Shown one piece after another: positions 344 to 58,628 of a stretch of DNA of 64,000 bases (positions are counted from its first letter, which is position 1; each line of letters begins with the position of its first letter). The stretch comes from Bacteroidota bacterium (GTDB taxonomy: Bacteria; Bacteroidota; Bacteroidia; JABDFU01). A program made the translations under genes and the position numbers. The notes below the pieces were generated by a model that worked only from the letters and a program-made list of their open reading frames with translations, ran no database searches and was not told the origin of the DNA. The stretch is from positions 8,651-72,650 of the forward strand of contig JABDFU010000005.1 in assembly GCA_013286385.1 (NCBI GenBank). Reading direction: 5' to 3'.

Positions 344-3601
<3,258 letters not shown>

Positions 3602-18162: not shown

Positions 18163-18232
18163 CCCTAAATATCATTATTGCTTATCTTTAGTCAGAAGAT
18201 CGAAATACTAAAATACAATTTAAGATTCTGTA

Positions 18233-22282: not shown

Positions 22283-23403
22283 TTGAAAGCAACTATATTC
22301 TCAAATTGCTGTGTCAGAACATCAAAATTATATCGTTCAATCATGTTCCGATACCCTTTTTCAACCATAGGGCCGTTCAGGGTATCATTTTTCAGAATAG
22401 TCCTGATCGCTTCCAGATACTCATCGCGGGTAGTTGCAAAATGAACGGCTCCCCCTGCTATTTTCTTCAGTTCAGCCGTTGGACTCGCAACGACCGGCTT
22501 TTTAAACGTCCAGTAATCAAAAAGTTTAATCGGACAGGTCGAATCATTGAGTTTATTCAGTTTCAACGGAAGAATACCCAAAACTGTTTCGCTCATCAGC
22601 GTCGAAAACAATTCAGCTCCGGCATTGCCCTTAACATGCACATTGGAATACCACGCCGATTTTTCCAGCAGGGACTCATACAACTCGCCCTCCCCGTAAA
22701 TATTCAGTTCCAGCTCAGGCAGTTCCTGAAAAACAGCAAAAAGCAATTCAAAATCGTAGCAATCCCTGAGCGAAGAGATGAAATTTACGGTCTTTTTGCC
22801 TGACGCATTGAAGATATGACCAGCCTCGTCAGACCGGTCGGCCTGGTTCCTTATAAACTCCATCGTCTTGCCATTGGGAACCACATGAACATTTTCACTG
22901 TAATGCAAAAAGTTCAGAGCCTGGCAGTCGCTCGTTGAAACGATGGCATAGGAAAACCTTCCCAAAACCGGTTTTGCAATAAACCGGTAGAACAATTTCA
23001 GCACCTTGCCGCTCAGCACCTCCTCCCAGTCATCAGTGACGACAAACACAAACCTCAGGCCCTTGAGTCTACAATAAATGCAGAGCAGCAGACTCATCAG
23101 GTGCTCATAGGACACCACAGCGTCAGGACGCCATTTGATCGCCTGACGCACATTGTCCATACTTTCATAGCAAAAAAGAAAAACAGACTTGGGCAATTTA
23201 CTGAAACGTTCAATCACCTGCACCTTTCCCGGATTTTTCTGCGAAAGTGACCTCAACCGTACCGAACCCTTTTCCCAGTTTTTATAGCGGACGGGGTTCA
23301 CGTAAATACAGCTATGTTCCTGAAGGGAAAAACGTTGAGCAAGCTCCTGTTCCTGCAACAAATAATAATCCCAAACAACTGGCGAAAAAAACAGATATTT
23401 CAT
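22279..23403 (-). CDS. GT-B fold glycosyltransferase (GT4-like)
   Basis: The track ORF starts at 23439. The ATG at 23403 (MKYLFFSPVVWDY) forms an ATGA overlap with the upstream gene's stop. The C-terminal half resembles a GT-B sugar-donor domain (NIYGEGELYESL...FDYWTFKKPVVASP). Confidence 0.65.
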   Translation of the reverse strand: MKYLFFSPVVWDYYLLQEQELAQRFSLQEHSCIYVNPVRYKNWEKGSVRLRSLSQKNPGKVQVIERFSKLPKSVFLFCYESMDNVRQAIKWRPDAVVSYEHLMSLLLCIYCRLKGLRFVFVVTDDWEEVLSGKVLKLFYRFIAKPVLGRFSYAIVSTSDCQALNFLHYSENVHVVPNGKTMEFIRNQADRSDEAGHIFNASGKKTVNFISSLRDCYDFELLFAVFQELPELELNIYGEGELYESLLEKSAWYSNVHVKGNAGAELFSTLMSETVLGILPLKLNKLNDSTCPIKLFDYWTFKKPVVASPTAELKKIAGGAVHFATTRDEYLEAIRTILKNDTLNGPMVEKGYRNMIERYNFDVLTQQFENIVAFK

Positions 23404-24455
23404 TTCAGGTAACTGTAAACTGTAGCTAGTACATTGCAATAGTTCTCCAATGAATAAACTTTTGAGTTTTCTATCCCGTTTTCTATAAGTCGTGCCCTTA
23501 TCTTCGGATCGTCACGCACTCTTCTGATAGCTGAAACCAATTCCTCTGCACTACCGGGTGCGAATAACAAGGCATTCCAGTCATCCGAAACAACCTCATT
23601 TAAACCATCCGTATTGCTTGCAATAACGGGAATGCCCATTGCCTGTGCTTCAATGGCAACCATCCACATTGGTTCGTAATGGGAAGGTAAAACGAAACAG
23701 TTAAGTCCCGAATAGAAAACACTCATCTCCTCCACAAACCCGGCAACTGAAACATTCGACAATCCGAATTTTTGAATCGTCTCTGTAATGTTAACCCTGT
23801 CCTTTCCTTCACCCGCAATTATAAATTGAAAAGACAATTCTGACCGCGATTGTCTTGCTGCCTCCAGGAATTCCTCCCACCCTTTTCCCTTGACCAGGCG
23901 GCCTGCAAAACCAATTCTGAAATCCGAAATTGAATCCCTCAATTTGCCCGGCCTAAACCGTTTTGGATCAACAAAATTGTAAAGGACTGTAACATTTGAA
24001 GAACTGACTTTAATTTTATTTACAAGTATTTTCTTTAAAAAACCGGAACAGGTGATAAACACAGACGCTTCATTCCTGGCCATTTTTAATACAGCAGCCG
24101 ACAATCTTCTGTTTGCTATAATGTCCCCGTGTTCATGGATGACAAACTTAAGGTCTCTGAAAAAAAAACGCTTCAATATATATCCGAACAAATGCGACCG
24201 CAAAAGATGACAATGCAAAACACCGATTTGATTGTCTTTAATATATTTTCGCAGACTTAAAATTGGGATTAAACTATACCTGCTGAATGAATTATAAACA
24301 ACTACATTTTTATGCTGAATGACAAGTTGAGGAGATGACCTCCGTAAAACGTAAAGATAAATGTCCGTATTGGCCTCCTGATTTTCAAAATAACACCTCT
24401 GCATGGTCTGTGCACCGCCAAGCCAAAGCGTATCAATCAGGTGCAGGACTTTCAT
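23400..24455 (-). CDS. Family 4 (GT-B) glycosyltransferase
   Basis: 351 aa. MKVLHLIDTLWLGGAQ N-terminus, GRLVKGKGWEEFL, EPMWMVAIEAQAMGIPVIAS (E-x7-E-like motif). Confidence 0.8.
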   Translation of the reverse strand: MKVLHLIDTLWLGGAQTMQRCYFENQEANTDIYLYVLRRSSPQLVIQHKNVVVYNSFSRYSLIPILSLRKYIKDNQIGVLHCHLLRSHLFGYILKRFFFRDLKFVIHEHGDIIANRRLSAAVLKMARNEASVFITCSGFLKKILVNKIKVSSSNVTVLYNFVDPKRFRPGKLRDSISDFRIGFAGRLVKGKGWEEFLEAARQSRSELSFQFIIAGEGKDRVNITETIQKFGLSNVSVAGFVEEMSVFYSGLNCFVLPSHYEPMWMVAIEAQAMGIPVIASNTDGLNEVVSDDWNALLFAPGSAEELVSAIRRVRDDPKIRARLIENGIENSKVYSLENYCNVLATVYSYLK

Positions 24456-24458
24456 CTT

Positions 24459-25619
24459 TTAGTTAATACAGCTTTTAAAAAGATCCGCATACTTGCCAAC
24501 AACCGTTTCCCAGTCGTAGTTAGATTTCAAATCAGCACTAATTCCCTTGTCTGTTAAAGTTCCACTCAGATAGATATCCCGATAGTAGGCATCTAATTTC
24601 GCGGCGATTTGTCCCGGTGATCTGAAATTGACAATAGAAGCATTTACATTTTCTGTAACCAGTTCTCGGATTCCATTCAACGGTGTGGTGATCAGGAAAC
24701 ATCCGCAGGCAAGCGCTTCTAAAACCGAAACAGACATCGCCTCGAAAACTGAAGAAATAACGACAACGCTGGCCGACTGATATTCGCATACCATTTCCTC
24801 CATGGTAATCCAGCCCCTGAATTTTACAAAAGCTCTCATTTTACCTGCTTCTACAAATTTTTCCATTCTTTTTCTAAGTTTACCGTCACCGATTACATGA
24901 ACAAGAAGATTTTTATTTTTTTTTGAATACAGCTCAATTGCTTTCAGAAAAGTAAACGGGTCTTTTTGATCAACCAACCTGCTCGCAAAAATAATTTTAA
25001 ACATCGCCGTTTTCTTGAAATAATCGGGATGAAACGTAGCTGTCGCAATTCCATTTTGAATAATGATGTTTCGCGCAGCGAATTTTCTGCCAATAAAACG
25101 ATCAAGGTTATCCTTCATTTCAATTGTCTGAATAAAATTCAGCTCCGATTCTTTACATATCTTCTTAATTCCAAAGTAAGTGAACAGATGATACCCGAAC
25201 ATTTGCCTGGGAAACATCCACGGAATATCGTGTCCATGAGAAATAAGCGTATACTTCAGCGCAAATTTTTTTTTAAGGTGCAATGCAACTATTCCTCCGG
25301 GTATTGCAAAATTCGCAAAGCACAAATCAAATTTTTCATCCCGACAGTATCGGGAAAGAAATTTTTTACTTGCCCTTATCCATGAAATCATTTCGATAAC
25401 ACCCGACTGGTAGGCTTGCTTTCTTTTTGACTTAAGCCGGATCACTTGAAGATTCGGTGAACCGTATCTTTCAGGTTCATTTTCAAACCAGGTTGTTACA
25501 ACAACAACTTTATTGTTCAACCCTGCCAGTCTTTCAGCTATATTTTGAGTGATTACTCCGGCTCCCCCGCCCAGCGGAGGATATTCATAATTTAAAATCA
25601 GGAGTCTCATTGCTTTCAA
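24459..25619 (-). CDS. Family 4 (GT-B) glycosyltransferase
   Basis: 386 aa. LLILNYEYPPLGGGAG N-terminus; C-terminal SSVFEAMSVSVLEALACGCFLITT. Confidence 0.8.
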   Translation of the reverse strand: MKAMRLLILNYEYPPLGGGAGVITQNIAERLAGLNNKVVVVTTWFENEPERYGSPNLQVIRLKSKRKQAYQSGVIEMISWIRASKKFLSRYCRDEKFDLCFANFAIPGGIVALHLKKKFALKYTLISHGHDIPWMFPRQMFGYHLFTYFGIKKICKESELNFIQTIEMKDNLDRFIGRKFAARNIIIQNGIATATFHPDYFKKTAMFKIIFASRLVDQKDPFTFLKAIELYSKKNKNLLVHVIGDGKLRKRMEKFVEAGKMRAFVKFRGWITMEEMVCEYQSASVVVISSVFEAMSVSVLEALACGCFLITTPLNGIRELVTENVNASIVNFRSPGQIAAKLDAYYRDIYLSGTLTDKGISADLKSNYDWETVVGKYADLFKSCIN

Positions 25620-27080
25620 TTAATCGGGCTTATCTGTTTTAGCCGCCGAACTTTGCTTTACGATAGAATCCAAAAAAGAATCCAGCAGCTCCACATTCAT
25701 TGTCCGGTTGCACAGAATTTTTTTTTCGGAATCCAGAATGAAAAGCTTAGGCGTCTCCGTGATATTGAACAAGTTGCGGTATTCATCAATTCCGCCCGGC
25801 TCAAAAACATTGTTCCAATCCAGCTGTTTTTGTTGAATGTACTTTTTCCACTCCTCCTCATTATTCTCGGTACAGACAGCAAAAACTTCAGCCCCCCTGG
25901 CTTTGCCCGATTTATGATACCAATCCCGCAACTGAGGTGTAATCACCTGGCAATGGGGACAGGCGTAATTCCAGAAATAAAGTAGGGTAAACCGGGCATG
26001 TACACCATAAAGATGAACCGGCAGATGGGCACTGTCCTGTCCGTTCACGTCAGATGCAAATTTTCCTATCAGCAAATTCTTCAGGGTCCGCGCCTGATGC
26101 ATAAGTCTGGCTGTTTCCGAATTGCTGGACCAATAACATTGTCCCGTAGCATAATACTTGTCCACCATATGAACGAACACTCCTTCCATGCCCAAAACGG
26201 GCATGGTTTCATAGGTAGACGTTATCCAGTAAACCGCGAATTTAAAGGTCTCCTTTCCTGCCCTGGCCCTCCCGACGACCAAATCAGCAGCGGCGCAGAG
26301 CGAATCCGGAGTTTGAACAGTCAGGTTGTTCATGTATATTTTCAGGGCATTAACCAAAATAGGTGTGCGCAACAATCGCTCATCTGAAAAATCGTAATTA
26401 TCCAGATAGTGGGCGTGCAAATACATTCCGTCAGACTGTGAATCCGGAATCGAAATATCATCCAGCGCATTGTACATCTTTTCAAGAAGCGTCCGGGGAT
26501 GAAGGGTCACAAAGCTTCTTTTGTAGGTCCTTAGCTCATTCTGAAGTAAAAGCATTTTGCTGCTGATTACAGTTGCCGAATCTGCATTTCCCTTTAAAGC
26601 GCCCAGGCGTCGGGTCAGGTTTCCAAGTTCTACCTGCTTTGCGGTGGTTACTTCAGTATAAGCGTAATAGGCCCTGTTCTCTTCAGAACCTCTGATCTTG
26701 AGATTTTTCAGTAGCCCGTTCAGTTCCGATTCAATACTAAATTCCTGCTCCTGGTCCACAATAAAATCCAGAAGAGGCTGCCTCGAATACAGTAAGGTAT
26801 ACAGTCCGCCTTTCAGTTTTTCTTTCCTTGAAAAAATGATCATTCCCCTGGTATCCGCGTGTGCCGTATCCTCAAGCAGATATTTGTCGGCAAAATGATT
26901 CGCAAGGTAATACACCGAATCCTTCGACAGACCCTTTATGTTAAATTGAATCCTGTATCCGGCTTCATCGACCGAAGAAAAACCAGCCACGGTCTTCACA
27001 AACAAAAATAAACCAGCCAGCACGGCCCGAAAAGGCCATTTTGTTTTAGTCCACAGAATATTTCCACATGCTGTTTGCAA
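25620..27080 (-). CDS. Thioredoxin-fold (TlpA/ResA-like) protein with a large N-terminal domain; first gene of the minus-strand glycosyltransferase operon
   Basis: 486 aa, TTG start, hydrophobic N-terminus. C-terminal redoxin domain with LLYFWNYACPHCQ (CxxC). Its stop directly abuts the next gene's ATG. Confidence 0.7.
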   Translation of the reverse strand: MQTACGNILWTKTKWPFRAVLAGLFLFVKTVAGFSSVDEAGYRIQFNIKGLSKDSVYYLANHFADKYLLEDTAHADTRGMIIFSRKEKLKGGLYTLLYSRQPLLDFIVDQEQEFSIESELNGLLKNLKIRGSEENRAYYAYTEVTTAKQVELGNLTRRLGALKGNADSATVISSKMLLLQNELRTYKRSFVTLHPRTLLEKMYNALDDISIPDSQSDGMYLHAHYLDNYDFSDERLLRTPILVNALKIYMNNLTVQTPDSLCAAADLVVGRARAGKETFKFAVYWITSTYETMPVLGMEGVFVHMVDKYYATGQCYWSSNSETARLMHQARTLKNLLIGKFASDVNGQDSAHLPVHLYGVHARFTLLYFWNYACPHCQVITPQLRDWYHKSGKARGAEVFAVCTENNEEEWKKYIQQKQLDWNNVFEPGGIDEYRNLFNITETPKLFILDSEKKILCNRTMNVELLDSFLDSIVKQSSAAKTDKPD

Positions 27081-27160: not shown

Positions 27161-27176
27161 ATTGGTTTCGAACGGG

Positions 27177-28928
27177 GTGAACATTCATAAAAAACATACG
27201 ATAAGAATTTACCTTCTGGTAGCTGTACTGGCTTTGGGAGTTTATGCAAACAGTATTGGCAATGAATATTCCATGGACGATGAATTCGTAACTGCCGACA
27301 ATCCATTGATTCTGAAAGGAATAAAAGCCCTTCCTGAAATTTTCACAACCTATTATTTTAAAAAGGGGAATGAACAGTTCGATTACCGGCCCATGGTGAA
27401 GGCAAGTTTCGCAATAGAATATTCCCTGTTCGGCCGAAACCCGCACATGAGCCATTTCATCAATGTCCTCTTGTATTCCCTGGCCTGCTGCCTGCTTCTG
27501 AAAACCCTCCTGATGTTATTCGGCGAATCCTGTTTGCTCTTTTCCCTGCTGACCGTACTGCTTTTCGCTGTTCATCCCATACACACCGAAGTAGTTTGCA
27601 GCCTTAAAAACAGGGACGTACTACTGACCTTTATCGCATCCATGAGCGCGCTTGTTTTTTGTGCAAAATATTGCATCCGGGGCCAGTGGAAATACCTGAT
27701 CTATGGCGCATTGTTCTTTTTCATCGCAGAACTTTGCAAGTCAGATTCCCTTGCTTACTTTTTCATCATTCCTTTTACGCTCTTTTACTTTAAAAAATGT
27801 ACGTCAAAACAATTAGCAGTTATAGTCGGAGTATTGTTTTTTGCCGCGAGTCTGATGCAGCTTTTGCACTATTATGTAATAGAACCCGGCTCCAGCCATT
27901 GCTTGCTCTATTATGAAAATCCCCTGTTTGAAAACAACAGTTTTGCCCGGCGCCTGCCCGTGGGGTTTTCCACACTGTTGGCCTACCTGCGCCTGCTGAT
28001 TTTGCCCTATCCCCTGATTTGTTACTATGGATTCAACCAGACTCCTGTTTTGGGATGGGACAGCCTGCAGGTCATCGCCGGACTTATACTGACACTTGCA
28101 TTGATGACGTATACCCTGCTGAATTTTAAAAAGAGAGCTCTCCATTTATTTGGCCTGCTTTTTTTTGTCCTTAGTCTTTTTGTTTTTCTCAATATCCTGA
28201 CCCCTGTAACAGGTATCCTTGGCGAAAGGCATGCGTTTGCCGCTTCTTTGGGCTTCTGCGTAATCGTAGTAGCGTTGCTTTTGGGCATTTTCAGACTTAA
28301 CCTCAGTCATCCTGTTGATTCCGGGAACCTTTTTTACCCCTTACGTACGAACAGCAAATTTTCATATAGTTTCGCTGTTCTCCTCCTGCTTTATTCAGGA
28401 CTGACCCTCATCCGCAACCCTGAATGGAAAGACCGGTTTTCACTTTTCAGCCACGACATCCGGTATGCACCCCAATCGGTTCAGCTGCAAAACCTTTTTG
28501 CAGGAGCCTGTCAGCTGAAATACTACGATCCCAAAACCAGCGATGCCGAAAAGTCCCTCGCCATCCGGACGGCGCTCAGTCATTACATGGAATCCCTGAA
28601 AATATATCCCTTGCAGGCACCCGCCAATAACAATATAGGAATTATACTTGCGGGGACTTATCAGCAATTTGATCAGGCACTGCCTTATCTCGAAAAAGCG
28701 GTTGAGCTCCGGGGCGCTCTTCCCGAATACAATTACAATTTAGGCCTCAACTATGCCAACCTCAACCGAAGCCAGGATGCGATAAAATCCCTTAAGAAAT
28801 GCATGGAGCTTGACTCCGGCTACCAGAATGCCTATTCGTTATTGGCCAATATTTACAGCAACATGGGATTGACGGCTGAAGCACAAAATCTGGACAGAAT
28901 TAAAAAACGCCGTTTCCCAAATTCATGA
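27177..28928 (+). CDS. TMTC-like GT-C membrane glycosyltransferase with C-terminal TPR repeats; paralog 3 of 4
   Basis: The track ORF starts at TTG 27162. I prefer GTG 27177 because of the -7 box position and because the resulting N-terminus (MNIHKKHTIRIYLL) aligns with paralog 4 (MKNFGNFRIYIFLF); the start remains uncertain. Motifs: 'YANSIGNEYSMDDE', 'YRPM', 'HPIHTEVVCSLKNRD', then TPR repeats. Confidence 0.75.
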   Translation: MNIHKKHTIRIYLLVAVLALGVYANSIGNEYSMDDEFVTADNPLILKGIKALPEIFTTYYFKKGNEQFDYRPMVKASFAIEYSLFGRNPHMSHFINVLLYSLACCLLLKTLLMLFGESCLLFSLLTVLLFAVHPIHTEVVCSLKNRDVLLTFIASMSALVFCAKYCIRGQWKYLIYGALFFFIAELCKSDSLAYFFIIPFTLFYFKKCTSKQLAVIVGVLFFAASLMQLLHYYVIEPGSSHCLLYYENPLFENNSFARRLPVGFSTLLAYLRLLILPYPLICYYGFNQTPVLGWDSLQVIAGLILTLALMTYTLLNFKKRALHLFGLLFFVLSLFVFLNILTPVTGILGERHAFAASLGFCVIVVALLLGIFRLNLSHPVDSGNLFYPLRTNSKFSYSFAVLLLLYSGLTLIRNPEWKDRFSLFSHDIRYAPQSVQLQNLFAGACQLKYYDPKTSDAEKSLAIRTALSHYMESLKIYPLQAPANNNIGIILAGTYQQFDQALPYLEKAVELRGALPEYNYNLGLNYANLNRSQDAIKSLKKCMELDSGYQNAYSLLANIYSNMGLTAEAQNLDRIKKRRFPNS

Positions 28929-30862
28929 AAAATTTCGGGAATTTCAGAATCTACATCTTTCTATTCTTGTTGTCTATTCTCTTTTACGGTAATAGTCTGT
29001 TCAACGGGCACAACCTCGACGACAGCACCATCACGACATCCAACCCTTTGGTAAGAAAAGGTATTGCTGCCATTCCTGAAATATTTACAAGTCCTTATTT
29101 TTCAGACGGCCACAACACTTTTGGATACCGTCCTATGACCAAAGCCAGTTTTGCCCTCGAATATTCCCTTTGGGGAGAAAACCTGTTTTTAAGCCACCTG
29201 GTAAACCTTTTAGTGTATGCCCTGGCTTGCTGCATTTTATACCGCACCCTGCTATTGCTTTTTAGCGAATACGGTCAGATCTATTCCCTGCTGGTATGCA
29301 TTTTGTTTTTGGCACACCCCATTCATACAGAGGTTGTGTGCAGCCTGAAGAACCGGGAAGTACTCTTCAGTTTTACAGGAGCCATCACTGCGTTTTACTT
29401 TTACCTCAGGTTTGCCCAATCCGGAAAATGGCTGGTCTTGTTACCAGCCCTGATCAGCCTGGCTTTTGCCGCATTTTCGAAGGAAGACGCCGCTGTTTAC
29501 CTGGTCATTATCCCCTTTTCCCTGTATTATTTCAGGAAAATAGAATGGAAAAAACTACTGGTAGTAGTTGCTAGTCTTGTTGTGCTTGTTTTGTTACTGA
29601 AATTGCTGGCTTCTGGCGCATTGCTCGTACGCCGCGAAACCAGAATCTTTTTATATTACGAAAACCCGCTGCTTTTTGACCCAGACAAATCTCATTTCAT
29701 CTCCATGACCTTTTCTACCCTGGCCCATTATATCCGCCTGCTTTTTCTGCCTTACCCCTTAATCTCTTATTATGGTTACAACGCATTTCCCATACCCGGC
29801 ATATACAATTATAAGACCATCGTTTCAGCGCTTTTAGTTGCCGTTTCCGTTGTTTTTTCAATACTGCAGTTCAGGAAAAGAACCCTTATAGGCTTCAGCA
29901 TTCTTTTCTTTTTTCTGGCAATTTCCCTGTTCACCAACAGTTTTTTTCCGGTGGCCGGAATCGTCGGAGACCGGCTTGCGTTCAATGCTTCTCTGGGATT
30001 TTGCATTTTTACAATAGCCCTGCTTTACAGGCTATTCAAATTAGACCCGGCTACAAGCAATTCCTTTCAACCCTTGTTTTTTTTCAGTAAAAACCAAGGG
30101 GTTCGAAATTCCACAATACTTGTACTTATAGTGTTCTGGGGACTTACCTTCAGTAGAAACTTCGAGTGGAAAGACATCCTCACCCTTACCGGCAGAGATG
30201 TTGAAAAAGCTCCCGAATCGTTGATGCTCAACACCCTTCTGGGGGGAGCCCTGCTGGATAAATCCAACAGCCCCCAAACCGATCCTGCACAAAAAAATGC
30301 CCTGACAGATCAGGCTGTTATCCATTATACCCGGGCCCTCAGCCTATACCCCAGACTGCCTGTAGTCTTAAATAACCTGGGAATGATTGAAGCCCTGGAC
30401 TATGCAAATTTCGACCAGGCGTTAGCTTATTTTTTGAAGGCCATCGAAGCCGAAAAAGGCCATGCCGAATACTACCTGAACGCTGCCAGCACATACGTCC
30501 GGTTAAACCGCAACAATGAGGCCGTCGATTTTTTCAGGCAGGCTATAGAGACCGATTCTACTTATGGAAAGGCATACCTGGCACTCTCCGATGCCCTGGT
30601 ATCCCAGGGTCGTCTGGACGATGCCATCAGCCTCCACCGGTTGGCCATCCGGAGGGGGGTTTATGCCAGGGAATACCCTACTTTTACAAAGCTCGGAGAC
30701 CTTTATTTAATGAAAAAAGATACAGCCTTGGCTGTTGAAGCCTACGGACAGGCCGTTTTAATCAATCCTTCCAACAAAGGCCTACTTCACAAAATTATCA
30801 GGTATTATCTAAATAGAGGCGAACCCGAAAAAGCAGCCCCCTTTCTTAAATTGCAGAAGTAA
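28925..30862 (+). CDS. TMTC-like GT-C membrane glycosyltransferase with C-terminal TPR repeats; paralog 4 of 4
   Basis: 645 aa, with the ATG overlapping the upstream stop (ATGA). Motifs: 'YGNSLFNGHNLDD', 'YRPM', 'HPIHTEVVCSLKNRE'. TPR repeats include VLNNLGMIEALDY, YYLNAASTYVRLNR, AYLALSDALVSQGR and TKLGDLYLMKKD. Confidence 0.78.
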   Translation: MKNFGNFRIYIFLFLLSILFYGNSLFNGHNLDDSTITTSNPLVRKGIAAIPEIFTSPYFSDGHNTFGYRPMTKASFALEYSLWGENLFLSHLVNLLVYALACCILYRTLLLLFSEYGQIYSLLVCILFLAHPIHTEVVCSLKNREVLFSFTGAITAFYFYLRFAQSGKWLVLLPALISLAFAAFSKEDAAVYLVIIPFSLYYFRKIEWKKLLVVVASLVVLVLLLKLLASGALLVRRETRIFLYYENPLLFDPDKSHFISMTFSTLAHYIRLLFLPYPLISYYGYNAFPIPGIYNYKTIVSALLVAVSVVFSILQFRKRTLIGFSILFFFLAISLFTNSFFPVAGIVGDRLAFNASLGFCIFTIALLYRLFKLDPATSNSFQPLFFFSKNQGVRNSTILVLIVFWGLTFSRNFEWKDILTLTGRDVEKAPESLMLNTLLGGALLDKSNSPQTDPAQKNALTDQAVIHYTRALSLYPRLPVVLNNLGMIEALDYANFDQALAYFLKAIEAEKGHAEYYLNAASTYVRLNRNNEAVDFFRQAIETDSTYGKAYLALSDALVSQGRLDDAISLHRLAIRRGVYAREYPTFTKLGDLYLMKKDTALAVEAYGQAVLINPSNKGLLHKIIRYYLNRGEPEKAAPFLKLQK

Positions 30863-30920
30863 AAGTAACCTTTTCATAACTTTTTACGTAAAAGTTCCGC
30901 ATTGGAAAACCTTTCTTCAC

Positions 30921-30928
30921 TAATTTTG
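30921..30928 (+). promoter_or_regulatory. Candidate -7 box (TAATTTTG) upstream of the 2510-aa gene
   Basis: Exact TAnnTTTG match in the 238-bp spacer, about 172 nt before the ATG at 31101. Confidence 0.3.
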
Positions 30929-30961
30929 CAAAAATCAATGTATCGGGTTTGTCAAGTCTTA

Positions 30962-30998
30962 TGTTAATGAATAGTTGATATTGTTAATGAATAGCTGA
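30962..30998 (+). promoter_or_regulatory. Two 17-bp direct repeats, 20 bp apart, upstream of the giant cargo gene (possible regulator binding sites)
   Basis: tgttaatgaatagttga (30962..30978) and tgttaatgaatagctga (30982..30998); 16 of 17 positions identical. Confidence 0.4.
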
Positions 30999-31100
30999 AA
31001 CCTTTTTTAGGTCATTTTCGTAGAATGTCTAAGAAATTGACATAATTTGAGGCGTAAATCATTAAGTGAGTAAGATAGAATGTATTTAAATCAGTAAGAT

Positions 31101-34100
31101 ATGAAGGAATTTACACACCGGTTTTACCTGAAAGCGAATTTTAAACTCATCCTGCTGTTAACGGTTTCCATGCTGGGTTGTTTTGTCAGGGCTTATGCAC
31201 AATCCGCGGTAGCCTTCACCGTTGCTCCTACACTTACTGTTTATCAGGGATATACAGGAACAGCCATACCTTCCACTTCGAGCTACCAGATTTTTTACGT
31301 TGATGGTGGCAGCAACGGAAACAAATCTCCTGTATTCGCCGCTGCAAGTCCGGGCAACAACTACAACAACGCCAGCTATTCGGCCTGTAATTCATGCTTC
31401 ACAAACAACCTTGCGGCCGGCCCTACAGATACCATGGATCACGTTTACAACGGGTATTACGGAAATGAAAGTAAGGTACTGAGTACGTATGCCCCCGGTA
31501 CATCCTTTATTTTTTCCTTTTCCTACAGCGGAGGCAGTGCTACCAATGACTTTTATGTAGAAGCTTCCCTGAGTTCATCCTTTACCAGCCCTATAGATTT
31601 CCTGATCAGCGGAGGGCCTGGTGCCGTTCTCCCTCAGCAAGGCGGCTCAACTGCCGCCACTATTACCTGGAATCCAAGTTCAGCCACCACATCTCCCGAT
31701 CTGCCCTATAACGCCACAGGATATTATTTCAGGATTAAGGCTGTAAATACATCTGCTCCGAACTCAACTACCTATTCGAATTTCGGAGCCCCGGTCATTT
31801 TGCAACTGGTTCCGATCACTTATTCAGCCACTACTTCCTCTCTGACATCCGGATTCGCAGTGGTCAGTTCAAACACCGCCGCCTTTGCCAGTGCGATACC
31901 AAACTCCCCGCTGGTATATGACGGAGAACCTGTATCCTTTAGCCTTACCATCAACGATCCCAGCAATTCAGGAGTTTACAATGTGTACTGGAAACAAAGC
32001 AACGGGTACAATTCCTGGTGGGGAGGTTCCGAATTTGGGTCAATGGGAGGAACCAGTGCAGGACCATACATCCTTTCAGGTTATACGGGTGTTGCAGATT
32101 TCGAAATTTCAGGCAACGACTGGTACTACAATACCATTCAGCCAACCTACTCCATGGCTACCAGTAACAACATCAACAACGCTTCCCTTTCCGTTTGCGA
32201 TGTTGCCCCGGCCGCAAACAGTATTTATGCCTTCCCGAGCTCCGATTACACGCCCAACATCATCACTCCGAGCGGCGGAACAGCTACCAGCAGTTTTACA
32301 CTTACTCCGATTTCTCACAATCAGGCAACCCCGAACTCAAATACCAGAGGGATGAATGGCTACCAGTTTGCCCCTGTAATTATGCAGACCTCTGTTGCGG
32401 GGAATGTGCTGGTCCTCACTCCGGGTTCCAACACCACCTTTGGTCCCGCTCCCGGATACCTGAATGAGGTTGCCATTACAACCAGCACCGCTACTGCTTA
32501 CGGAACCTCAGGTCCTGCCGGCAATCTGGATGCATCGGGATGGACTGCAGGTTCCTACTATGGAAACGGCATGAACGAAACCAGTGTCAACTGCTGCAGC
32601 AGTACAACAGGTCCATCACTTACCATATCAACAGCCTCACCGGTCTGTGTAGGAACAGGAGCATCTCTGGTCTGGACACCCGGTACCTCATCCACTTACA
32701 CCACTACTGCAACCACAACATTTTCCCTGTACGAACTGGGAAGCAGAAACGGCGGATCTCCTGGTGACAACGGAGCCGTTCCGGGAGATGTGAGCAGTTT
32801 CATATCCTCCACAACTCCAGGGGCAGGATCAACCTCTGTAACCCTGACAGTCCCGGCCAGTGCCATAGGTGCAAATTCCGATGTCGCCCCCCGTGGATTC
32901 GGAGTAATGGTCAGTGATGCGACAAGCCCCAACGGCTGTGGTGTCGGACACAACATTCTCTGCGGATCCTACGCCGCCACCCAATCTACAATCAATGCAA
33001 ACCAGCTCAGTGTTATGCCGGTATACATGTATCCTCCCGTCGATGTTTTTTGTCAGACTCCAAGTATTGATTTTCCCATTCAGCAAGGAGGCGGTGGCAC
33101 ACCCACTTCATGCTGTTCCGCCGGCAATGGCAGCGGAGCCACTGTCAGGACCACCTACTTTAAGGGAGCGTGCCCATTGCAGACCGGTATGGCTAACGCA
33201 AAACCCAGTGGTGGTGTTTTTTCCACTGCCAACGCAACCGTTGCGGCAGGCACTGCAATTTCCTATGTAGACACGAAATTGCTCAATAACAATACGGGCC
33301 CTGCCGGCATGAATGACATTTCCTACCTCGCTTATATTAACGAAGGCACGCCTTATTTGTATGCCTGTACAGGTGGTATGTGGTCAGGTAATGCCGGAGT
33401 CAGTAACGTTACCTCGGGATTGTACTATTCTGCGAGCCCTTACACTTCCTGGACAGCCGCCTCCGGAGCGTACTTTAACCCCATCTGGGCCAATGCGGTT
33501 GCTTCCATTAACAACTTCACCTATATGGCTGCAGGTTACAAAGACCCGGTGAACGGCCCCACTGCGCCGTCTTATTCCAACAACAACGGACTTTACAAGG
33601 AAACTTCAACAAATTCGCCTGCAGGTGGCTTTACAAAACTTACTACCGGCTTAAGCGCTTCAAATGGCGGTTCCTGCTTTACCTCCGTCGCTGGCACCGG
33701 CACCAACATCTTTGCCGGAACCTGGGGAATGGGCGTTGCTTATTCTCCGTCCAGTGGTTCTGCCAGTAGCTTTATATGGGCAAACGGTCTTGGCAGCGCC
33801 AACTCCAACGCAGCTGTTTCCACACAGCTGCTTGCCGATGCGGGCAGTGTTTCAAGCAGTCCGGGATCGGGCCGCTTGTGTATAACCTCACTTTACTATA
33901 TGACAGGCGTTGGCTTGTTCGCCGGCACACCCACAGGAGCCTGGTTTACAGCCGACACCGGCCATACCTGGACTCAGATCACAACAGGATACGTTAATTG
34001 CATCACAGCCGGAAGCGTTTCCGCGATTCCCGGCACCTCCACGGTATTCATCGGAACTGAAAACGCGGGAGTTACCAAAATGAGTATCACCACCTACAAT

Positions 34101-37100
34101 ACCGGAACAGCATCCCAGGGTGCTGCGAGCACAACAGTAAGTGCCACAGGCACGGCTGTTTTTACCTCCTCGATGTCCGGCGGGTGGCTGGTTTACACTT
34201 CCGGCGCCAATAGCGGAATGGGTGTCCGTATAACCAGTTATACAGGAGGCTCCTCCTCAGGAGGAAGCCTGGTCGTAAACAAGGCGCCCAGTACTGGGCT
34301 TACCAATGTTAGTTTTACCATTATAATGCCTATTACGGCTACTCAGGTAAACGGCAACTTTACAAGCGGTACCCTGCTCCCGTCTACCTCTTTATATGCG
34401 CCAACTAATCCCGTTACAGGTTTACAGGTGGTCAGGTCACTGTGCTATTCCAATAGTACACTTTATGCAGGAACCCCTTTTGGAACTTATTGGAGTACCG
34501 ATAATGGCTCTGACTGGTATACCTCCACTTATCCCGGAACAGTTGTTCAGAACCAATGGGTGACCGATGAAATTATCGACCCCAACACAACGGAAACCAT
34601 GACTGCATTTTTCGGTTCGGGCTACTGGACTCCTGAAGTCGCAGGTATGAACATAGGAAACCCTTATGGGGTTCCGTGGGCAGTTCCGATTTCCGGTTAC
34701 ACCAGTTCTTCAGAGGTTACAACGGCTTATCCAGCTGTCCGCACGCAGTTTACCAGTTACATCACCGAATCATTTTCAGGACTTTCTCAAACAGGCAGTA
34801 CGGTTACAATAGGTTCCGGAGATGCAACTGACGGACTCTTCCCTACCACCATTCCTGCAAACACCCCTTTAGTCTGGAATGACGGATCCTATGAATTGAT
34901 TACCTCAAACACATCTACTGCACTGACCGTTTCCGGCAATTATACCAAAAACAATGTACGGGCTGTAATTAACCCTGTCATTTCCCAAACAGGAGCCGGA
35001 GTCATTACCTTCTGGTCCTGGAGCCCTACCGACGGATTCACTTCAGATTACAACGGAGCCCAGATCACTTTGGCTGACGGTACAACAGAATACATTGGCA
35101 ACATTTCCGGCTCTTTTGCAGCAGGCACCTTTACTGCCCAGGCCTATACCAACGCAGCACTGACTATAGCCAGCTCTCATGCTACTGCGACACCCCAGAA
35201 TTTCACTGTCAATTGGTTTCCCATCATCGGTACCGGAACCTCTTTCACTTCAGCTATGGTAGGCGGCTCCCTTACCTTCATGTACCGGGGCAACCAAAAC
35301 GCTTCGTGGCAGTCTGTTCCGATTGTGGGATATTACAATTCAACACATTTGTTTACAACAGTTAATCAGGGGATCGTTTCCCAGCCTTATACCCTTACTA
35401 TGCCCATTTCCACAGCTGCTTCCATTACCGCCGCATTGAATACAGTAAACGACATGGTTACCGCTCTTGCCTCAAGCGGTGGTACCAATTTGTTTGTCGG
35501 CACTGCCTGTTCCCAGAACATGGGTCCTTCCGGTGGCTGGACAAATCCTACCTCAACTCCCACAGCTATGGATTTTGACAACCTGCCGACCTATTACAAT
35601 GGGGGTTCTTCCGGTGGCGTAGACTTGCCCTTTGCAACAACAAATTACTATTCACGCTACGAAGACGAAACCAACGCCTGCGGCAGCAACCATCCGACCG
35701 CCTGCGTGCTCATGACCGTTCCTGTTATTCCCAACAACTGGAGCTACAATACCGGATCTTCAATGGGCGCTCCCAGCGCACCCGGAGTTCCCGTTACAGT
35801 CACTTACGATATCAACCCATCGACCGGATATGTTTGCACAGGTGATACCAGCCACCTGACAGCCGCTTCCGGAGGAACCATCACATGGTCGGTTTCCGGC
35901 TGCAGTTCCGACTTCACAGTAAACTCCTCAACCGGATACACCTGGGCACAGGCAACCGGAGGAATAAATCAGGGAACCCTCAGTGTAACCTGGGGCGCTA
36001 CCGCCTGTACAGGCGCCAGTTTCTCTTATTCCACATCTTATTATACCGGAACATCCTCTGGTTGTTCCGCTTCTGCTTCATCCCCGGCCATGTCACCTAC
36101 CGTAACAATTACAGCTGTAACTGCACCAACAACAACGGGCAGCCAGACCATGTCGACTTGTGCAGGCAGTGCTACTCCTGGAACGGCTACGCTGCAGTAC
36201 ACCAATCCACCCGGTGCACCCTGCCTCTGGTACAGACAGCCCTTTGGGGATGCCGGGTTCCAGGCGATAACAGCGATGGCTGCCCCGGGCAGCGGATACA
36301 ATACAAATACGCTGAATCTGGAGTCGGGATACTCAGTTACCGAAGCCGGATACGGAGCTTCCAATCCCACCAACGGGGACCAATTTTACCTTGTAGGCGG
36401 CTCGGCTTGTCTTTCCACTGTGACTTCCCCGACCTATACGCTCACTGTCAACAATGCCGCACCAAGTACTACAAATGGTATGGTTTCAGGCGATTACGCC
36501 TGGGCAGGTTACTCATCCAACGATTATACCCTGGGCACCAACTGGCTGCAATGGGGTGGTGGCAGTACCTGGACGCTGATGACAGCTGCAAACTATCCAA
36601 CAGCCACAAACAATGTATTTATCAGCAATGGCACCCAGACCTGTCCTGGTTTCTCCTGGCCCCACGTTTCAGGAAGCACGCACTCATTATCAAACAACCT
36701 TACTGTAGACGCAGGTGCTTTCCTTTATATGGACAATGATTATTATGGTGCAGCTCCCAATCTGACTGCATCCGGCGCCATAGCCAACTACGGTACTATT
36801 TCATTCGCCACTTATTTTTCCGGTTCCTATCCCGGTGGGACATTATCCGGTGTCGGTGGTTTCACCAACGAATCCGGTGCAACCTTCGCCTTTGCTTCTT
36901 CCGCAGCTACCACAGCAGAGACACTTAGCGATGGCGGAAATTTTTCAAACCTGGGTACCTTCACTCAGGGATTAGGTACCGTCAACATGGATGGCACAGC
37001 CGATCAAAGTTTCACTACGGGTGGCAGCGGTATTACGCTGTACAATCTTACCATAGATAATACGGCTGCTGCAGGCAGCAATATTGTCAGTCTTAGTGAC

Positions 37101-57698: not shown

Positions 57699-57713
57699 AG
57701 TATTGCACCCATT

Positions 57714-58583: not shown

Positions 58584-58599
58584 ACCGTTTAATTTGCGT

Positions 58600-58607: not shown

Positions 58608-58628
58608 GAAAAATAGAATTAACTTGCG

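What the first reader, a model, noticed from the sequence alone, without database searches (positions are those of the whole stretch)
27162..30862. Tandem TMTC-like GT-C/TPR genes (4 paralogs in the window) as candidate periplasmic protein O-glycosyltransferases
Seen in sequence:
- Four paralogs (344..2236, 9902..11821, about 27177..28928, 28925..30862) share one architecture: a polytopic N-terminal half followed by a TPR C-terminal half.
- They share the motifs Y(A/G)N(S/T)..x(L/M)DD in the first loop, YRP(L/M), and HP(I/V)HTEVV..(I/L)K(S/N)R(D/E).
- The last two paralogs are translationally coupled (ATGA overlap) and sit directly upstream of three huge Ser/Thr-rich T9SS cargo genes.

Established knowledge: the HPxHTE/DUF1736 core plus TPR is the architecture of eukaryotic TMTC1-4, which O-mannosylate cadherins from dolichyl-phosphate-mannose. 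GT-C enzymes use polyprenyl-phosphate-linked donors. A GtrB/DPM1-type GT2 that could make such a donor lies at 15904..16845.

Inference: this is a bacterial, expanded TMTC-like system that glycosylates secreted or T9SS proteins in the periplasm. To my knowledge, the enzyme that attaches glycan to protein in the Bacteroidota general O-glycosylation pathway is not firmly assigned, so this family deserves a look.
Basis: partly seen in the sequence, partly recalled or inferred. Interest (0 to 1): 0.8.

Follow-up and report, generated by a model that had tools for sequence, protein, structure and literature searches.

The report
Bacterial TMTC-like glycosyltransferases beside secreted giants
Two back-to-back genes (and two more copies elsewhere in the window) encode membrane enzymes that resemble the animal TMTC protein O-mannosyltransferases; they probably add a sugar in the periplasm to the huge secreted surface proteins encoded next door, but they belong to a very large, already catalogued family and nobody has tested what they do.

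Summary
Four paralogs (344..2236-, 9866/9902..11821+, 27162/27177..28928+, 28925..30862+) align end to end. All keep the DD, YRP, HPxHTEVV, K(S/N)R(D/E), (S/C)K(E/S) and G(E/D)Rxx(Y/F) motifs, and all carry C-terminal TPRs. The tandem pair overlaps by ATGA.

They are GT-C enzymes of the PMT/TMTC type:
- 42 of 62 relatives hit Pfam DUF1736 and 33 of 62 hit PMT_2.
- The AlphaFold model (pLDDT 90-93) matches only Pmt4, PglB, STT3, AglB and ArnT.
- The predicted 11-helix topology puts the motifs and the TPRs in the periplasm.
- The GT2 at 15904..16845 is a full-length ArnC/PgfS/GtrB-type polyprenyl-phosphate-sugar synthase. Such a synthase lies within 10 kb of 19 of 79 related loci.

The tandem pair belongs to a small clade. 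Where its neighbours could be read, they are divergent GT4/GT8/GT9 clusters and T9SS cargo genes. One relative keeps an ortholog of the 2510-aa protein directly downstream.

Protein O-glycosylation of the adjacent cargo is therefore the best reading, but it is unproven. An LPS or glycan acceptor is a serious rival. Nothing supports a role as the missing general O-OTase: the family is multi-copy and huge (78,225 cluster representatives), and a 2026 preprint proposes YfhO instead.

Verdict: new member of a known kind, moderate interest.

The parts
27162..28928 (+). TMTC-like GT-C/TPR paralog A (588 aa from TTG 27162; probably 583 aa from GTG 27177), first gene of the tandem pair
   Evidence: ORF. 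Aligns with its paralogs and keeps every motif: D39D40, YRP75, HPIHTE138, KNRD149, CKSD192, GERHAF354. TPR at residues 468-577. The database copy P0010 is 583 aa.
28925..30862 (+). TMTC-like GT-C/TPR paralog B (645 aa), translationally coupled to A by an ATGA overlap
   Evidence: AlphaFold model: pLDDT 93.5 full length, 90.0 for residues 1-440. Foldseek top hits are Pmt4, PglB, STT3, AglB and ArnT. Motifs: D32D33, Y68R69P70, H131P132xH134T135E136, K142/R144, K186E187, R350.
344..2236 (-). TMTC-like paralog C (630 aa), in a separate clade from the tandem pair
   Evidence: Sub-threshold DUF1736 hit (19.5 bits against a gathering score of 27). NJ tree.
9866..11821 (+). TMTC-like paralog D (651 aa from 9866; 639 aa if it starts at ATG 9902, which overlaps the stop of the 3-HAO gene)
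   Evidence: Sub-threshold DUF1736 hit (21.8 bits). NJ tree.
15904..16845 (-). GT2 polyprenyl-phosphate-monosaccharide synthase (GtrB/ArnC/PgfS type), the candidate donor-making enzyme
   Evidence: Pfam Glycos_transf_2. Full-length matches to PgfS (6e-71) and ArnC (6e-51), both below the equivalog cut-offs. Two C-terminal hydrophobic helices at ~234-255 and ~268-290. A 54%-identical ortholog lies directly downstream of a TMTC-like gene in L019 and L032.
16903..18162 (-). MOP/Wzx-type flippase
   Evidence: Pfam Polysacc_synt_3 and Polysacc_synt. Weak NCBIfam MOP flippase hit.
18233..19366 (+). Acyltransferase_3 membrane O-acyltransferase
   Evidence: Pfam PF01757.
19338..21161 (-). Two GT8 glycosyltransferases (19338..20273 and 20274..21161), similar to LPS 3-alpha-galactosyltransferase
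   Evidence: Pfam Glyco_transf_8. NCBIfam PRK15171, 1e-39 each, below cut-off.
21158..22282 (-). Second Acyltransferase_3
   Evidence: Pfam PF01757.
22279..25619 (-). Three GT4-type glycosyltransferases (22279..23439, 23400..24455, 24459..25619), transcribed divergently from the tandem pair
   Evidence: Pfam. The 24459..25619 product is 60% identical to the GT4 in the same position in L080.
25620..27080 (-). DUF5106/thioredoxin-like protein between the GT cluster and the tandem pair
   Evidence: Pfam. A 53%-identical ortholog in L080 sits downstream of the cargo gene instead.
30863..31100 (+). 238-bp intergenic region between the pair and the giant cargo gene
   Evidence: Sequence. It contains a 17-bp near-perfect direct repeat, TGTTAATGAATAG(T/C)TGA, and a TAATTTTG element. 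The simple scan found no terminator here.
31101..38633 (+). 2510-aa Ser/Thr/Gly-rich secreted protein with a marginal T9SS type A CTD; the candidate acceptor
   Evidence: TIGR04183 at 22.7 bits against a cut-off of 23. S+T 26.5%. A 40%-identical ortholog (2481 aa, weak precomputed Por_Secre_tail hit) lies directly downstream of the TMTC-like triplet in L080.
38665..42585 (-). 1306-aa T9SS type A cargo with 14 GloVer repeats and a PKD_6 domain (minus strand)
42904..46230 (+). 1108-aa Ser/Thr-rich T9SS type A cargo
   Evidence: TIGR04183 at 29.1 bits. S+T 24.7%.

Best explanation
The two overlapping genes encode inner-membrane glycosyltransferases of the GT-C fold, PMT/TMTC type. Each has 11 predicted transmembrane helices, catalytic loops on the periplasmic face and a periplasmic TPR superhelix.

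Proposed mechanism:
1. A GtrB/ArnC/PgfS-type GT2, such as 15904..16845, loads a single sugar onto undecaprenyl phosphate at the cytoplasmic face (inferred from homology).
2. The lipid-linked sugar is flipped across the membrane. The flippase is not identified.
3. The TMTC-like pair transfers the sugar to Ser/Thr hydroxyls of Sec-exported proteins in transit through the periplasm. The pair may act as a heterodimer, as PMT1-PMT2 does, because the two genes are translationally coupled. The TPR domain is proposed to select the substrate (inferred).
4. The preferred substrates are the Ser/Thr-rich T9SS cargo encoded next to the pair, first of all the 2510-aa product of 31101..38633. The cargo is then exported through the T9SS.

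What is shown: the fold, the motifs, the topology prediction, the gene arrangement and its conservation. What is inferred: the donor type, the acceptor class and the identity of the acceptor.
For: Family and fold:
- All four paralogs keep TMTC motifs M1 (DD), M2 (YRP), M4 (KE) and M7 (ERxxY), plus HPxHTE. 'LLFAVHPIHT' in paralog A is identical to the human TMTC3 segment quoted in PMC7801869.
- 42 of 62 family members hit DUF1736 (best 5.9e-7) and 33 of 62 hit PMT_2 (best 6.1e-10).
- The model of residues 1-440 has pLDDT 90. Its best PDB matches are Pmt4, PglB, STT3, AglB, ArnT and Pmt1/2 at probability 1.00. Matches to non-GT-C folds such as MFS transporters, which rank from 17 down, have probability below 0.5.

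Topology:
- 11 hydrophobic helices. K/R-rich short loops (RKIE, RKRT) fall on the cytoplasmic side. DD, HPxHTE, K186, ENPL and R350 fall on the opposite side, together with the TPRs.

Donor:
- The window GT2 matches PgfS and ArnC over its full length and has two C-terminal TM helices.
- ArnC/PgfS-type GT2 genes lie within 10 kb of 19 of 79 related loci, and directly downstream in L019 and L032.

Acceptor:
- W27162, W28925 and P0002-P0009 form one clade.
- Within that clade:
  - L080 has GT8 and three GT4 genes, divergent from three TMTC-like genes, followed by a 2481-aa ortholog of the window's giant cargo (40% identity).
  - The P0007 contig has GT2, GT9 and GT4 genes, divergent from a TMTC-like gene, followed by a 1237-aa T9SS cargo.
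  - L083 has a Por_Secre_tail protein next to the TMTC-like gene.
- Family-wide, proteins bearing a T9SS C-terminal sorting domain (CTD) make up 9.7% of ORFs at gene positions 1-4 from a TMTC-like gene and 4.3% further out. Fisher p = 2.8e-4, but the loci are not independent. Pfam validated 9 of 9 of these CTD calls.

Precedent:
- In streptococci, a GtrB-type synthase plus an extracytoplasmic GT-C glycosylates Ser/Thr-rich surface proteins. The pgf genes sit beside their adhesin genes (bioRxiv 10.1101/2024.05.05.592596).
Against: - There is no biochemical or genetic evidence for any bacterial member. None turned up in the library searches.
- The two tandem proteins give no Pfam DUF1736 or PMT_2 hit on their own, and no PDB sequence hit.
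- Foldseek E-values are weak (2e-3 and worse) and do not separate monosaccharide transferases (PMT, ArnT) from oligosaccharyltransferases (PglB, STT3).
- The divergent GT cluster (GT8 similar to LPS galactosyltransferase, GT4, GT9 in relatives, LpxD nearby) looks like LPS-core synthesis. That fits a lipid or glycan acceptor equally well.
- The window GT2 is 10 kb away on the other strand.
- The largest ortholog group of the family sits in housekeeping synteny (SerRS-TPR-KsgA-TMTC-like-AMP-ligase), not next to cargo.
- The clade synteny rests on only 3-4 contigs from related organisms.
- T9SS cargo genes are common in these genomes, and the enrichment statistic is not corrected for phylogeny.
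Confidence: 0.5

Rival explanations
1. The enzymes are ArnT/GtrC-like modifiers of LPS or another envelope glycan. They transfer a sugar from Und-P-sugar to lipid A, LPS core or O-antigen (possibly the anionic LPS that anchors T9SS type A cargo). The TPR domain docks them to envelope machinery rather than to a protein substrate.
For: - The genes are divergently adjacent to a waa-like set: two GT8 similar to LPS 3-alpha-galactosyltransferase (1e-39), three GT4, a Wzx-type flippase, acyltransferases and LpxD at 14854..15879.
- GT9 heptosyltransferase-like genes flank or overlap TMTC-like genes in relatives: L082, the P0007 contig, and L085 with a start/stop overlap.
- ArnT is among the best fold matches, and PMT_2 is the Pfam family that also covers ArnT-like enzymes.
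- From general knowledge, TPR domains also occur in polysaccharide-export proteins such as BcsC and PgaA. These appear as weak TPR matches.
Against: - Known ArnT and Gtr enzymes have no TPR domain. The only characterised GT-C family with a C-terminal TPR (TMTC1-4) acts on proteins (PMC7801869; PMC11292533).
- The motif set matches TMTC in detail.
- The gene that stays with the TMTC-like genes in the clade is the downstream cargo gene, while the make-up of the GT cluster changes.
- GT9 is rare in the wider set of loci, found in 2 of 79.
Confidence: 0.27
2. A member of this family is the missing enzyme of the phylum-wide Bacteroidota general O-glycosylation pathway. It would be either the O-oligosaccharyltransferase that puts the core glycan on D(S/T)(A/I/L/V/M/T) sites, or the 'ligase' that adds the outer glycan.
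For: - The OTase and the ligase are still undiscovered, and a review suggests looking among homologs of the O-mannosylation system (PMC12871550).
- The fold is the one used by PglB, STT3 and PMT.
- The pair lies next to a Wzx flippase and GT cluster that resembles an LFG-type (locus of fragilis glycosylation) outer-glycan locus.
- One ortholog group is widely conserved in Bacteroidia MAGs in a housekeeping neighbourhood.
Against: - The family is multi-copy and fast-diverging: four paralogs in 64 kb, several copies per MAG, and 78,225 cluster representatives. This does not fit one conserved essential enzyme.
- By sequence the family groups with monosaccharide transferases that use P-linked donors (PMT_2, DUF1736). 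It has no WWD motif.
- The adjacent 2510-aa cargo is depleted in the general sequon, with 1 found against about 7.4 expected.
- The group that discovered the pathway now predicts YfhO as the OTase, on conservation and essentiality.
- Presence of the family in B. fragilis, P. gingivalis, T. forsythia and F. johnsoniae could not be checked with these tools.
Confidence: 0.1
3. The proteins are non-catalytic TPR scaffolds or chaperones that kept a GT-C-like membrane anchor.
For: Database names are mostly 'tetratricopeptide repeat protein'. The tandem pair gives no catalytic-domain Pfam hit.
Against: Every residue position proposed as catalytic, metal-binding or phosphate-binding in TMTCs is invariant or nearly so across 62 diverse members: D32, D33 (>=90%), R69, H131/H134/E136, K186, R350. 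Such conservation would not be expected in a pseudo-enzyme.
Confidence: 0.03

Closest known systems
Eukaryotic TMTC1-4 (CAZy GT105), ER protein O-mannosyltransferases for cadherins and protocadherins
   Same: - Architecture: an N-terminal polytopic GT-C domain of 11 TM helices and a C-terminal TPR domain on the non-cytoplasmic side.
- Motifs: DD in the first loop..YRP, (H)P(I)HT(E) at the end of TM3, K-E in EL3 and ERxxY in EL5.
- DUF1736 is detectable in 42 of 62 relatives.
- Like TMTC1-4, the family is expanded into paralogs, which hints at substrate-specific enzymes.
   Different: - These are bacterial proteins of 580-650 aa with about 4-6 TPRs, shorter than the animal proteins.
- The window proteins do not reach the DUF1736 gathering score: none for the tandem pair, 19.5 and 21.8 bits for the other two.
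- The TMTC M5 'DW' motif is replaced by a conserved ENPL.
- The donor would be an undecaprenyl-phosphate sugar of unknown identity, not Dol-P-Man.
- The acceptors cannot be cadherins.
- No activity has been shown.
PMT/POMT (GT39) protein O-mannosyltransferases, including Pmt1-Pmt2 and Pmt4
   Same: - Best structural match: C. thermophilum Pmt4 9i5k, TM-score 0.51, probability 1.00.
- PMT_2 hits in 33 of 62 relatives.
- An acidic pair in the first loop.
- PMTs work as dimers, and the tandem, translationally coupled genes here suggest a heterodimer.
   Different: There is no MIR beta-trefoil domain; a TPR tail takes its place. There is no sequence-level PDB hit. Foldseek E-values are weak.
Streptococcal GtrB/PgtC2 and Pgf (PgfS, PgfM1, PgfM2) systems
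   Same: - The same two-step logic: a GtrB-type GT-A makes Und-P-sugar, and an extracytoplasmic GT-C transfers it to Ser/Thr-rich surface proteins.
- The pgf genes are clustered with their adhesin genes.
- The best NCBIfam match of the window GT2 is PgfS.
   Different: The streptococcal GT-C enzymes belong to the YfhO family and have no TPR. Those are Gram-positive systems whose acceptors are poly-S/T disordered tails. Here the cargo is evenly S/T-rich and is exported by the T9SS.
ArnT (GT83), undecaprenyl-phosphate-L-Ara4N:lipid A transferase
   Same: GT-C fold (5ezm and 5f15 are among the top hits). Partnered with an ArnC-type GT2, which the window GT2 matches at 6e-51. Periplasmic active site.
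   Different: ArnT has no TPR domain and acts on lipid A. The motif pattern here follows TMTC rather than ArnT.
Bacteroidota YfhO, predicted general O-OTase (bioRxiv 10.64898/2026.07.27.740950)
   Same: Also a PMT-like polytopic membrane protein proposed to glycosylate periplasmic proteins in this phylum. Also untested.
   Different: It is a different Pfam family (PF09586), reported as single-copy, largely conserved and essential. No YfhO was found among the window ORFs scanned. The TMTC-like family is multi-copy and variable.

Membership tests
TMTC / GT105 (DUF1736-TPR O-mannosyltransferases) | Pfam TMTC_DUF1736 (PF08409) hit at the gathering score | tested here: inconclusive
   The tandem pair gives no hit at E<=0.01. 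Paralogs 344 and 9866 score 19.5 and 21.8 bits against a gathering score of 27. At family level, 42 of 62 relatives hit at E<=0.01, best 5.9e-7.
TMTC / GT105 (DUF1736-TPR O-mannosyltransferases) | Conserved motifs M1 DD (EL1), M2 ..YRP (EL1), M3 R(x)D (EL2), M4 KE (EL3), M7 ERxxY (EL5) | tested here: met
   D32D33, Y68R69P70, K142-N-R144-(D/E), K186E187 and G(E/D)R350xx(Y/F) are present in all four paralogs. They are invariant or nearly so in 62 relatives. M5 'DW' is not conserved as such; ENPL occupies that loop.
TMTC / GT105 (DUF1736-TPR O-mannosyltransferases) | 11 TM helices, N-terminus cytoplasmic, C-terminal TPR domain on the non-cytoplasmic side | tested here: met
   This is a prediction only. 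The AlphaFold helices, the hydropathy profile and the positive-inside rule together give 11 TMs with the TPRs on the same side as the DD loop. TPR Pfam hits at residues 457-645.
TMTC / GT105 (DUF1736-TPR O-mannosyltransferases) | Transfers mannose from a polyprenyl-phosphate-mannose donor to Ser/Thr of protein | not testable with these tools
   Needs enzymology or glycoproteomics.
GT-C fold superfamily (GT-C_A: PMT, ArnT, STT3/PglB) | Structural similarity of the membrane domain to solved GT-C enzymes | tested here: met
   Model of residues 1-440, pLDDT 90.0, pTM 0.91. Foldseek top hits: Pmt4 9i5k, PglB 6gxc, STT3 8age, AglB 5gmy and ArnT 5ezm, at probability 1.00, TM-score 0.44-0.52 and E 2e-3 to 2e-2.
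PMT / GT39 | Luminal MIR domain between TM helices | tested here: not met
   No MIR hit in Pfam. The extracytoplasmic domain is a C-terminal TPR array.
Oligosaccharyltransferases STT3/PglB/AglB (GT66) | WWDxG motif in a C-terminal periplasmic domain | tested here: not met
   No WWD in any of the four paralogs. No STT3 Pfam hit.
Bacteroidota general O-glycosylation O-OTase | A conserved (probably essential) enzyme that transfers the core glycan to D(S/T)(A/I/L/V/M/T) sites across the phylum | not testable with these tools
   The enzyme is undefined at sequence level. Indirect evidence is negative: the family is multi-copy, and the adjacent cargo is poor in the sequon. Presence in the model species could not be checked.
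GtrB/ArnC/DPM1-type polyprenyl-phosphate glycosyltransferase (the GT2 at 15904..16845) | GT2 catalytic domain plus two C-terminal TM helices, with full-length similarity to ArnC/GtrB/PgfS | tested here: met
   PF00535 at 1.5e-32. PgfS 6e-71 over profile positions 3-305 of 308 and ArnC 6e-51 over positions 3-309 of 316, both below the equivalog cut-offs. Hydrophobic helices at 234-255 and 268-290.
T9SS type A cargo (the three large proteins) | C-terminal Por_Secre_tail / TIGR04183 sorting domain | tested here: met
   38665: 50.3 bits. 42904: 29.1 bits. 31101: 22.7 bits against a cut-off of 23, so marginal; its L080 ortholog carries a weak precomputed Por_Secre_tail hit.

The most novel reading that the evidence does not exclude
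The clade containing the tandem pair is a cargo-dedicated periplasmic O-glycosylation system in Bacteroidota. In this reading, a heterodimeric TMTC-like enzyme uses an undecaprenyl-phosphate sugar to decorate a specific giant T9SS adhesin before export, independently of the general D(S/T)x pathway. This would be the first bacterial function for the TMTC family. It would show that the eukaryotic 'one TMTC paralog, one substrate class' logic has a prokaryotic counterpart or origin.
Probability: 0.3. Interest if true: 0.75.

Novelty: new member of a known kind. Interest (0 to 1): 0.5.

Why it matters
No paper in the searched library reports an experimental function for a bacterial TMTC-like GT-C/TPR protein. 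Yet the membrane domain alone matches 78,225 cluster representatives in public data.

If the tandem pair glycosylates the neighbouring T9SS cargo, three things follow:
- It would define a second, substrate-specific protein O-glycosylation route in Bacteroidota.
- It would give a tractable bacterial model for the disease-linked TMTC enzymes.
- It would narrow the search for the still-missing transferases of Bacteroidota protein glycosylation.

If the acceptor turns out to be LPS, the finding would still assign a function to a large orphan family, as TPR-bearing ArnT-like envelope modifiers.

Tried and rejected
1. Sequence searches of the membrane domain against the PDB found nothing relevant. 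This held for the single sequence and for 4- and 22-sequence profiles. The only hit was a chance match to a SWEET-family (MtN3/saliva) protein at E = 0.057.
2. Foldseek with the full-length model was swamped by TPR proteins. It had to be repeated with residues 1-440.
3. The source organism could not be identified.
4. A metagenome scan for more members of the cargo-adjacent clade recovered only the contig already known, L087 = L080. The clade synteny therefore rests on few contigs.
5. The 588-aa membrane ORF 55932..57698 has an NDD motif, so I tested whether it is a fifth family member. hhalign against A4 gave probability 1%, and BLASTP against the DUF8201 protein of L082 gave nothing. It is not shown to be related.
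6. GT9 and UbiA, seen next to clade members, are not conserved neighbours across the wider family, and neither has a homolog in the window by tblastn.
7. The sigma-70 promoter and terminator scan gave nothing above the shuffle expectation, and it is not suited to Bacteroidota promoters.
8. Literature searches for a characterised bacterial TMTC, DUF1736 or GT105 enzyme found none.

Full report
**Observation.** The window holds four full-length paralogs: 344..2236 (-), 9866..11821 (+), 27162..28928 (+) and 28925..30862 (+). They align from end to end at 30-42% identity. All four keep these motifs, at conserved spacing:
- Y(A/G)N(S/T)...(L/M)DD
- YRP
- HP(I/V)HTEVV..(I/L)K(S/N)R(D/E)
- (S/C)K(E/S)
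- G(E/D)Rxx(Y/F)

All four end in TPR repeats. The stop of the first tandem gene and the start of the second share ATGA at 28925-28928. The first tandem gene probably starts at GTG 27177, because the database copy P0010 is 583 aa. The 9866 ORF can start at ATG 9902, which overlaps the stop of the 3-hydroxyanthranilate dioxygenase gene.

The downstream proteins are Ser/Thr-rich (25-27% against 11.5% in the rest of the window). They carry T9SS type A C-terminal sorting domains (CTDs), clear for 38665 and 42904 and marginal for 31101. One of the three, 38665..42585, is on the minus strand.

**What the proteins are.** On their own, the two tandem proteins hit only TPR models in Pfam and NCBIfam. 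The other two paralogs give sub-threshold DUF1736 hits. Homologs are abundant in Bacteroidota metagenome bins. When 62 of them were scanned individually, 42 hit TMTC_DUF1736 (best 5.9e-7) and 33 hit PMT_2 (best 6.1e-10).

The conserved columns correspond to the motifs that Eisenhaber and co-workers defined for human TMTC1-4 (PMC7801869; columns):
- M1, DD in the first luminal loop
- M2, ..YRP
- M3, R(x)D after TM3
- M4, KE in EL3
- M7, ERxxY in EL5

The stretch LLFAVHPIHT in paralog A is identical to the human TMTC3 segment quoted in that paper.

AlphaFold2 gave confident models: pLDDT 93.5 for the full length with 62 sequences, and 90.0 for residues 1-440 with 22 sequences. Foldseek with the full-length model returned only TPR proteins. 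With the membrane domain alone, the top matches were Pmt4, PglB, STT3, AglB, ArnT and Pmt1/Pmt2, at probability 1.00 and TM-score 0.44-0.52. Matches to non-GT-C folds such as MFS transporters begin at rank 17 and have low probability. Sequence searches against the PDB found nothing for this domain.

Combining the model's helices with hydropathy and the positive-inside rule gives 11 transmembrane helices. The N-terminus is cytoplasmic. The short K/R-rich loops lie inside, and all conserved motifs and the TPR array lie on the periplasmic side. This is the TMTC topology.

I conclude with high confidence that these are GT-C glycosyltransferases of the PMT/TMTC type with a periplasmic active site. 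They lack the MIR domain of PMTs and the WWD motif of oligosaccharyltransferases.

**Donor.** The GT2 at 15904..16845 (-) matches PgfS (6e-71) and ArnC (6e-51) over its whole length and has two C-terminal hydrophobic helices. That is the GtrB/ArnC/DPM1 type, which makes polyprenyl-phosphate monosaccharides.

In 79 related loci from species-representative genomes, a full-length homolog lies within 10 kb in 19. In L019 and L032 a 54%-identical ortholog lies directly downstream of the TMTC-like gene. A second set of 71 metagenome loci showed this in only 3.

Every characterised enzyme of the PMT_2-like families uses a monophosphate-linked single sugar (established knowledge), so that is the most likely donor. 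The fold search cannot exclude a diphosphate-linked oligosaccharide donor.

**Context in the window.** A glycan cluster runs from 15904 to 25619, mostly on the minus strand and divergent from the pair. It contains the GT2, a Wzx-type flippase, two acyltransferase_3 genes (one of them, 18233..19366, on the plus strand), two GT8 similar to LPS 3-alpha-galactosyltransferase and three GT4. LpxD lies just beyond it, and a thioredoxin-like DUF5106 protein lies between the cluster and the pair.

Downstream, after 238 bp, comes the 2510-aa protein, which has no Pfam domain and a marginal CTD. The gap contains a 17-bp direct repeat and a TAATTTTG element. The 2510-aa protein carries the general Bacteroidota sequon D(S/T)(A/I/L/V/M/T) only once, against about 7.4 expected from its composition.

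**Comparative evidence.** A neighbour-joining tree places the tandem pair in one clade with P0002-P0009. The other two window paralogs form a separate branch. The gene neighbourhood recurs within that clade:
- Contig Ga0206957_1022 (L080) has a GT8, three GT4-type genes, then three tandem TMTC-like genes transcribed divergently (the last two again overlapping by 4 nt). Next comes a 2481-aa protein that is 40% identical to the window's giant protein, then the thioredoxin-like gene.
- The P0007 contig has an acyltransferase, UbiA, GT2, GT9 and GT4, then divergently one TMTC-like gene followed by a 1237-aa T9SS cargo.
- L083 has a Por_Secre_tail protein directly after the TMTC-like gene.
- L082 has GT9 and GT4 genes divergent from the TMTC-like gene, but the contig ends before the next gene.
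- A more distant member, L085, overlaps a GT9 gene and sits next to a PorP/SprF gene.

Outside the clade, the commonest arrangement is housekeeping synteny: SerRS, a TPR protein, KsgA, the TMTC-like gene, then an AMP-dependent ligase. This arrangement is seen in full in L084; among the 79 loci the AMP-dependent ligase is the gene directly downstream in 25 and KsgA the gene directly upstream in 17.

I built a CTD profile iteratively from the window's own CTDs. Pfam confirmed 9 of 9 of the calls checked. With this profile, CTD-bearing proteins make up 9.7% of ORFs at gene positions 1-4 from a TMTC-like gene and 4.3% further away. The pooled Fisher p is 2.8e-4, but the loci are not phylogenetically independent and the genome-wide background is unknown.

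The family is very large. The four-paralog profile of the membrane domain finds 78,225 cluster representatives at E<=1e-3 and 7,013 at E<=1e-30. Several MAGs contribute two to four loci each.

**Literature.**
- The library holds no paper that links TMTC, DUF1736 or GT105 to a bacterial function. GT105 appears only in automated CAZyme counts.
- A 2025 review states that the OTase and the ligase of the Bacteroidota pathway remain undiscovered, and suggests looking among homologs of O-mannosylation enzymes (PMC12871550).
- A July 2026 preprint from the group that discovered the pathway says the OTase is still unidentified. It predicts YfhO, on the grounds of PMT-like HHpred similarity, conservation and essentiality. 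It also notes that YfhO is absent from P. gingivalis.
- In streptococci, a GtrB-type synthase plus an extracytoplasmic GT-C of the YfhO family glycosylates Ser/Thr-rich surface proteins, and the pgf genes sit beside their adhesin genes. This is a direct mechanistic precedent.

**Explanation and rivals.**
- **Best reading (confidence about 0.5 for the whole chain).** The enzymes are Und-P-sugar-dependent periplasmic protein O-glycosylating enzymes. The pair may work as a heterodimer, and the TPR domains may select the adjacent T9SS cargo.
- **Main rival (about 0.27).** The acceptor is LPS or another glycan. This is suggested by the waa-like make-up of the divergent cluster and by the recurring GT9 genes.
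- **General-pathway OTase or ligase (about 0.1).** This reading is weak because of copy number, family size, sequence affinity to monosaccharide transferases, the sequon-poor neighbour and the competing YfhO proposal.
- **Non-catalytic scaffold.** This is very unlikely, given the invariant catalytic-site positions.

**Novelty and score.** Membership in a known superfamily is clear, and automated pipelines already label relatives as 'DUF1736 domain-containing', 'GT39 family' or 'protein O-mannosyl-transferase'. This is therefore a new member of a known kind. What is new and testable is the clade-specific coupling to giant T9SS cargo genes. I put interest at 0.5: a specialist would not be surprised by the genes, but the arrangement offers a concrete experiment on an orphan family that touches an open question.

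Noticed in passing
window 55208..60852: ORF 55932..57698 (588 aa) has no Pfam or NCBIfam hit. It is a polytopic membrane protein with 'EGNDDSLY' just after its first hydrophobic helix, so it may be another GT-C-like enzyme without TPRs. Two FkbM-type methyltransferases flank it (55208..55978 +, 57714..58583 -), and a SprB-repeat/CHU_C T9SS type B cargo follows it (58645..60852). hhalign against the TMTC-like profile was negative.
   Followed up: partly
window 30863..31100: The intergenic region upstream of the giant cargo gene carries a 17-bp near-perfect direct repeat, TGTTAATGAATAG(T/C)TGA (about 30962 and 30983). It also has a TAATTTTG element (about 30921) that resembles the Bacteroidota -7 promoter motif. 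These may be a regulator site and the cargo gene's own promoter.
   Followed up: no
window 31101..38633: The 2510-aa cargo contains the general Bacteroidota O-glycosylation sequon D(S/T)(A/I/L/V/M/T) only once, against about 7.4 expected from its own composition. The other two cargo proteins are not depleted (9 against 5.5, and 2 against 3.4). The BLAST alignment also shows repeated Asp-box-like S/TxDxGxxW motifs.
   Followed up: partly
window 9387..9905 / 9902: If paralog D starts at ATG 9902, it overlaps the stop codon of the 3-hydroxyanthranilate 3,4-dioxygenase gene by ATGA. That is an odd translational coupling of a kynurenine-pathway enzyme with a membrane glycosyltransferase.
   Followed up: partly
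window 38665..42585 (-): This T9SS cargo has 14 'GloVer' choice-of-anchor tandem repeats (TIGR03803, 761 bits), a PKD_6 domain and a Por_Secre_tail.
   Followed up: no
L084 and many of L001-L079 (e.g. L025, L044, L048, L049, L062): The commonest ortholog group of the family sits in conserved synteny: SerRS, a 616-626-aa TPR protein, KsgA, the TMTC-like gene, then an AMP-dependent ligase. A few kb downstream there are often a KAS III, an SDR, a B12-binding radical SAM enzyme, an ArnC-type GT2 and a GNAT. This looks like a lipid or glycolipid biosynthesis cluster of unknown product.
   Followed up: partly
L085 138..4305: A TMTC-like gene overlaps the start of a GT9 (LPS heptosyltransferase II-like) gene by 4 nt. 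It is followed by a PorP/SprF gene and a large ORF. This second kind of coupling links the family both to LPS-type GTs and to T9SS type B cargo loading.
   Followed up: partly
L080 1..1654; L082 3157..4206; the P0007 contig: A UbiA-family prenyltransferase recurs next to the GT cluster that lies divergent from clade members. In L080 it sits with a Pyr4-type membrane terpene cyclase. tblastn with the two clade UbiA proteins found no homolog in the window. It could make a different polyprenyl-linked donor, or it could be unrelated.
   Followed up: no
window 46413..48344: A 643-aa protein with class-II glutamine amidotransferase domains is related to PurF only far below the family cut-off (128 bits against 350). 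It lies directly after the third cargo gene.
   Followed up: no
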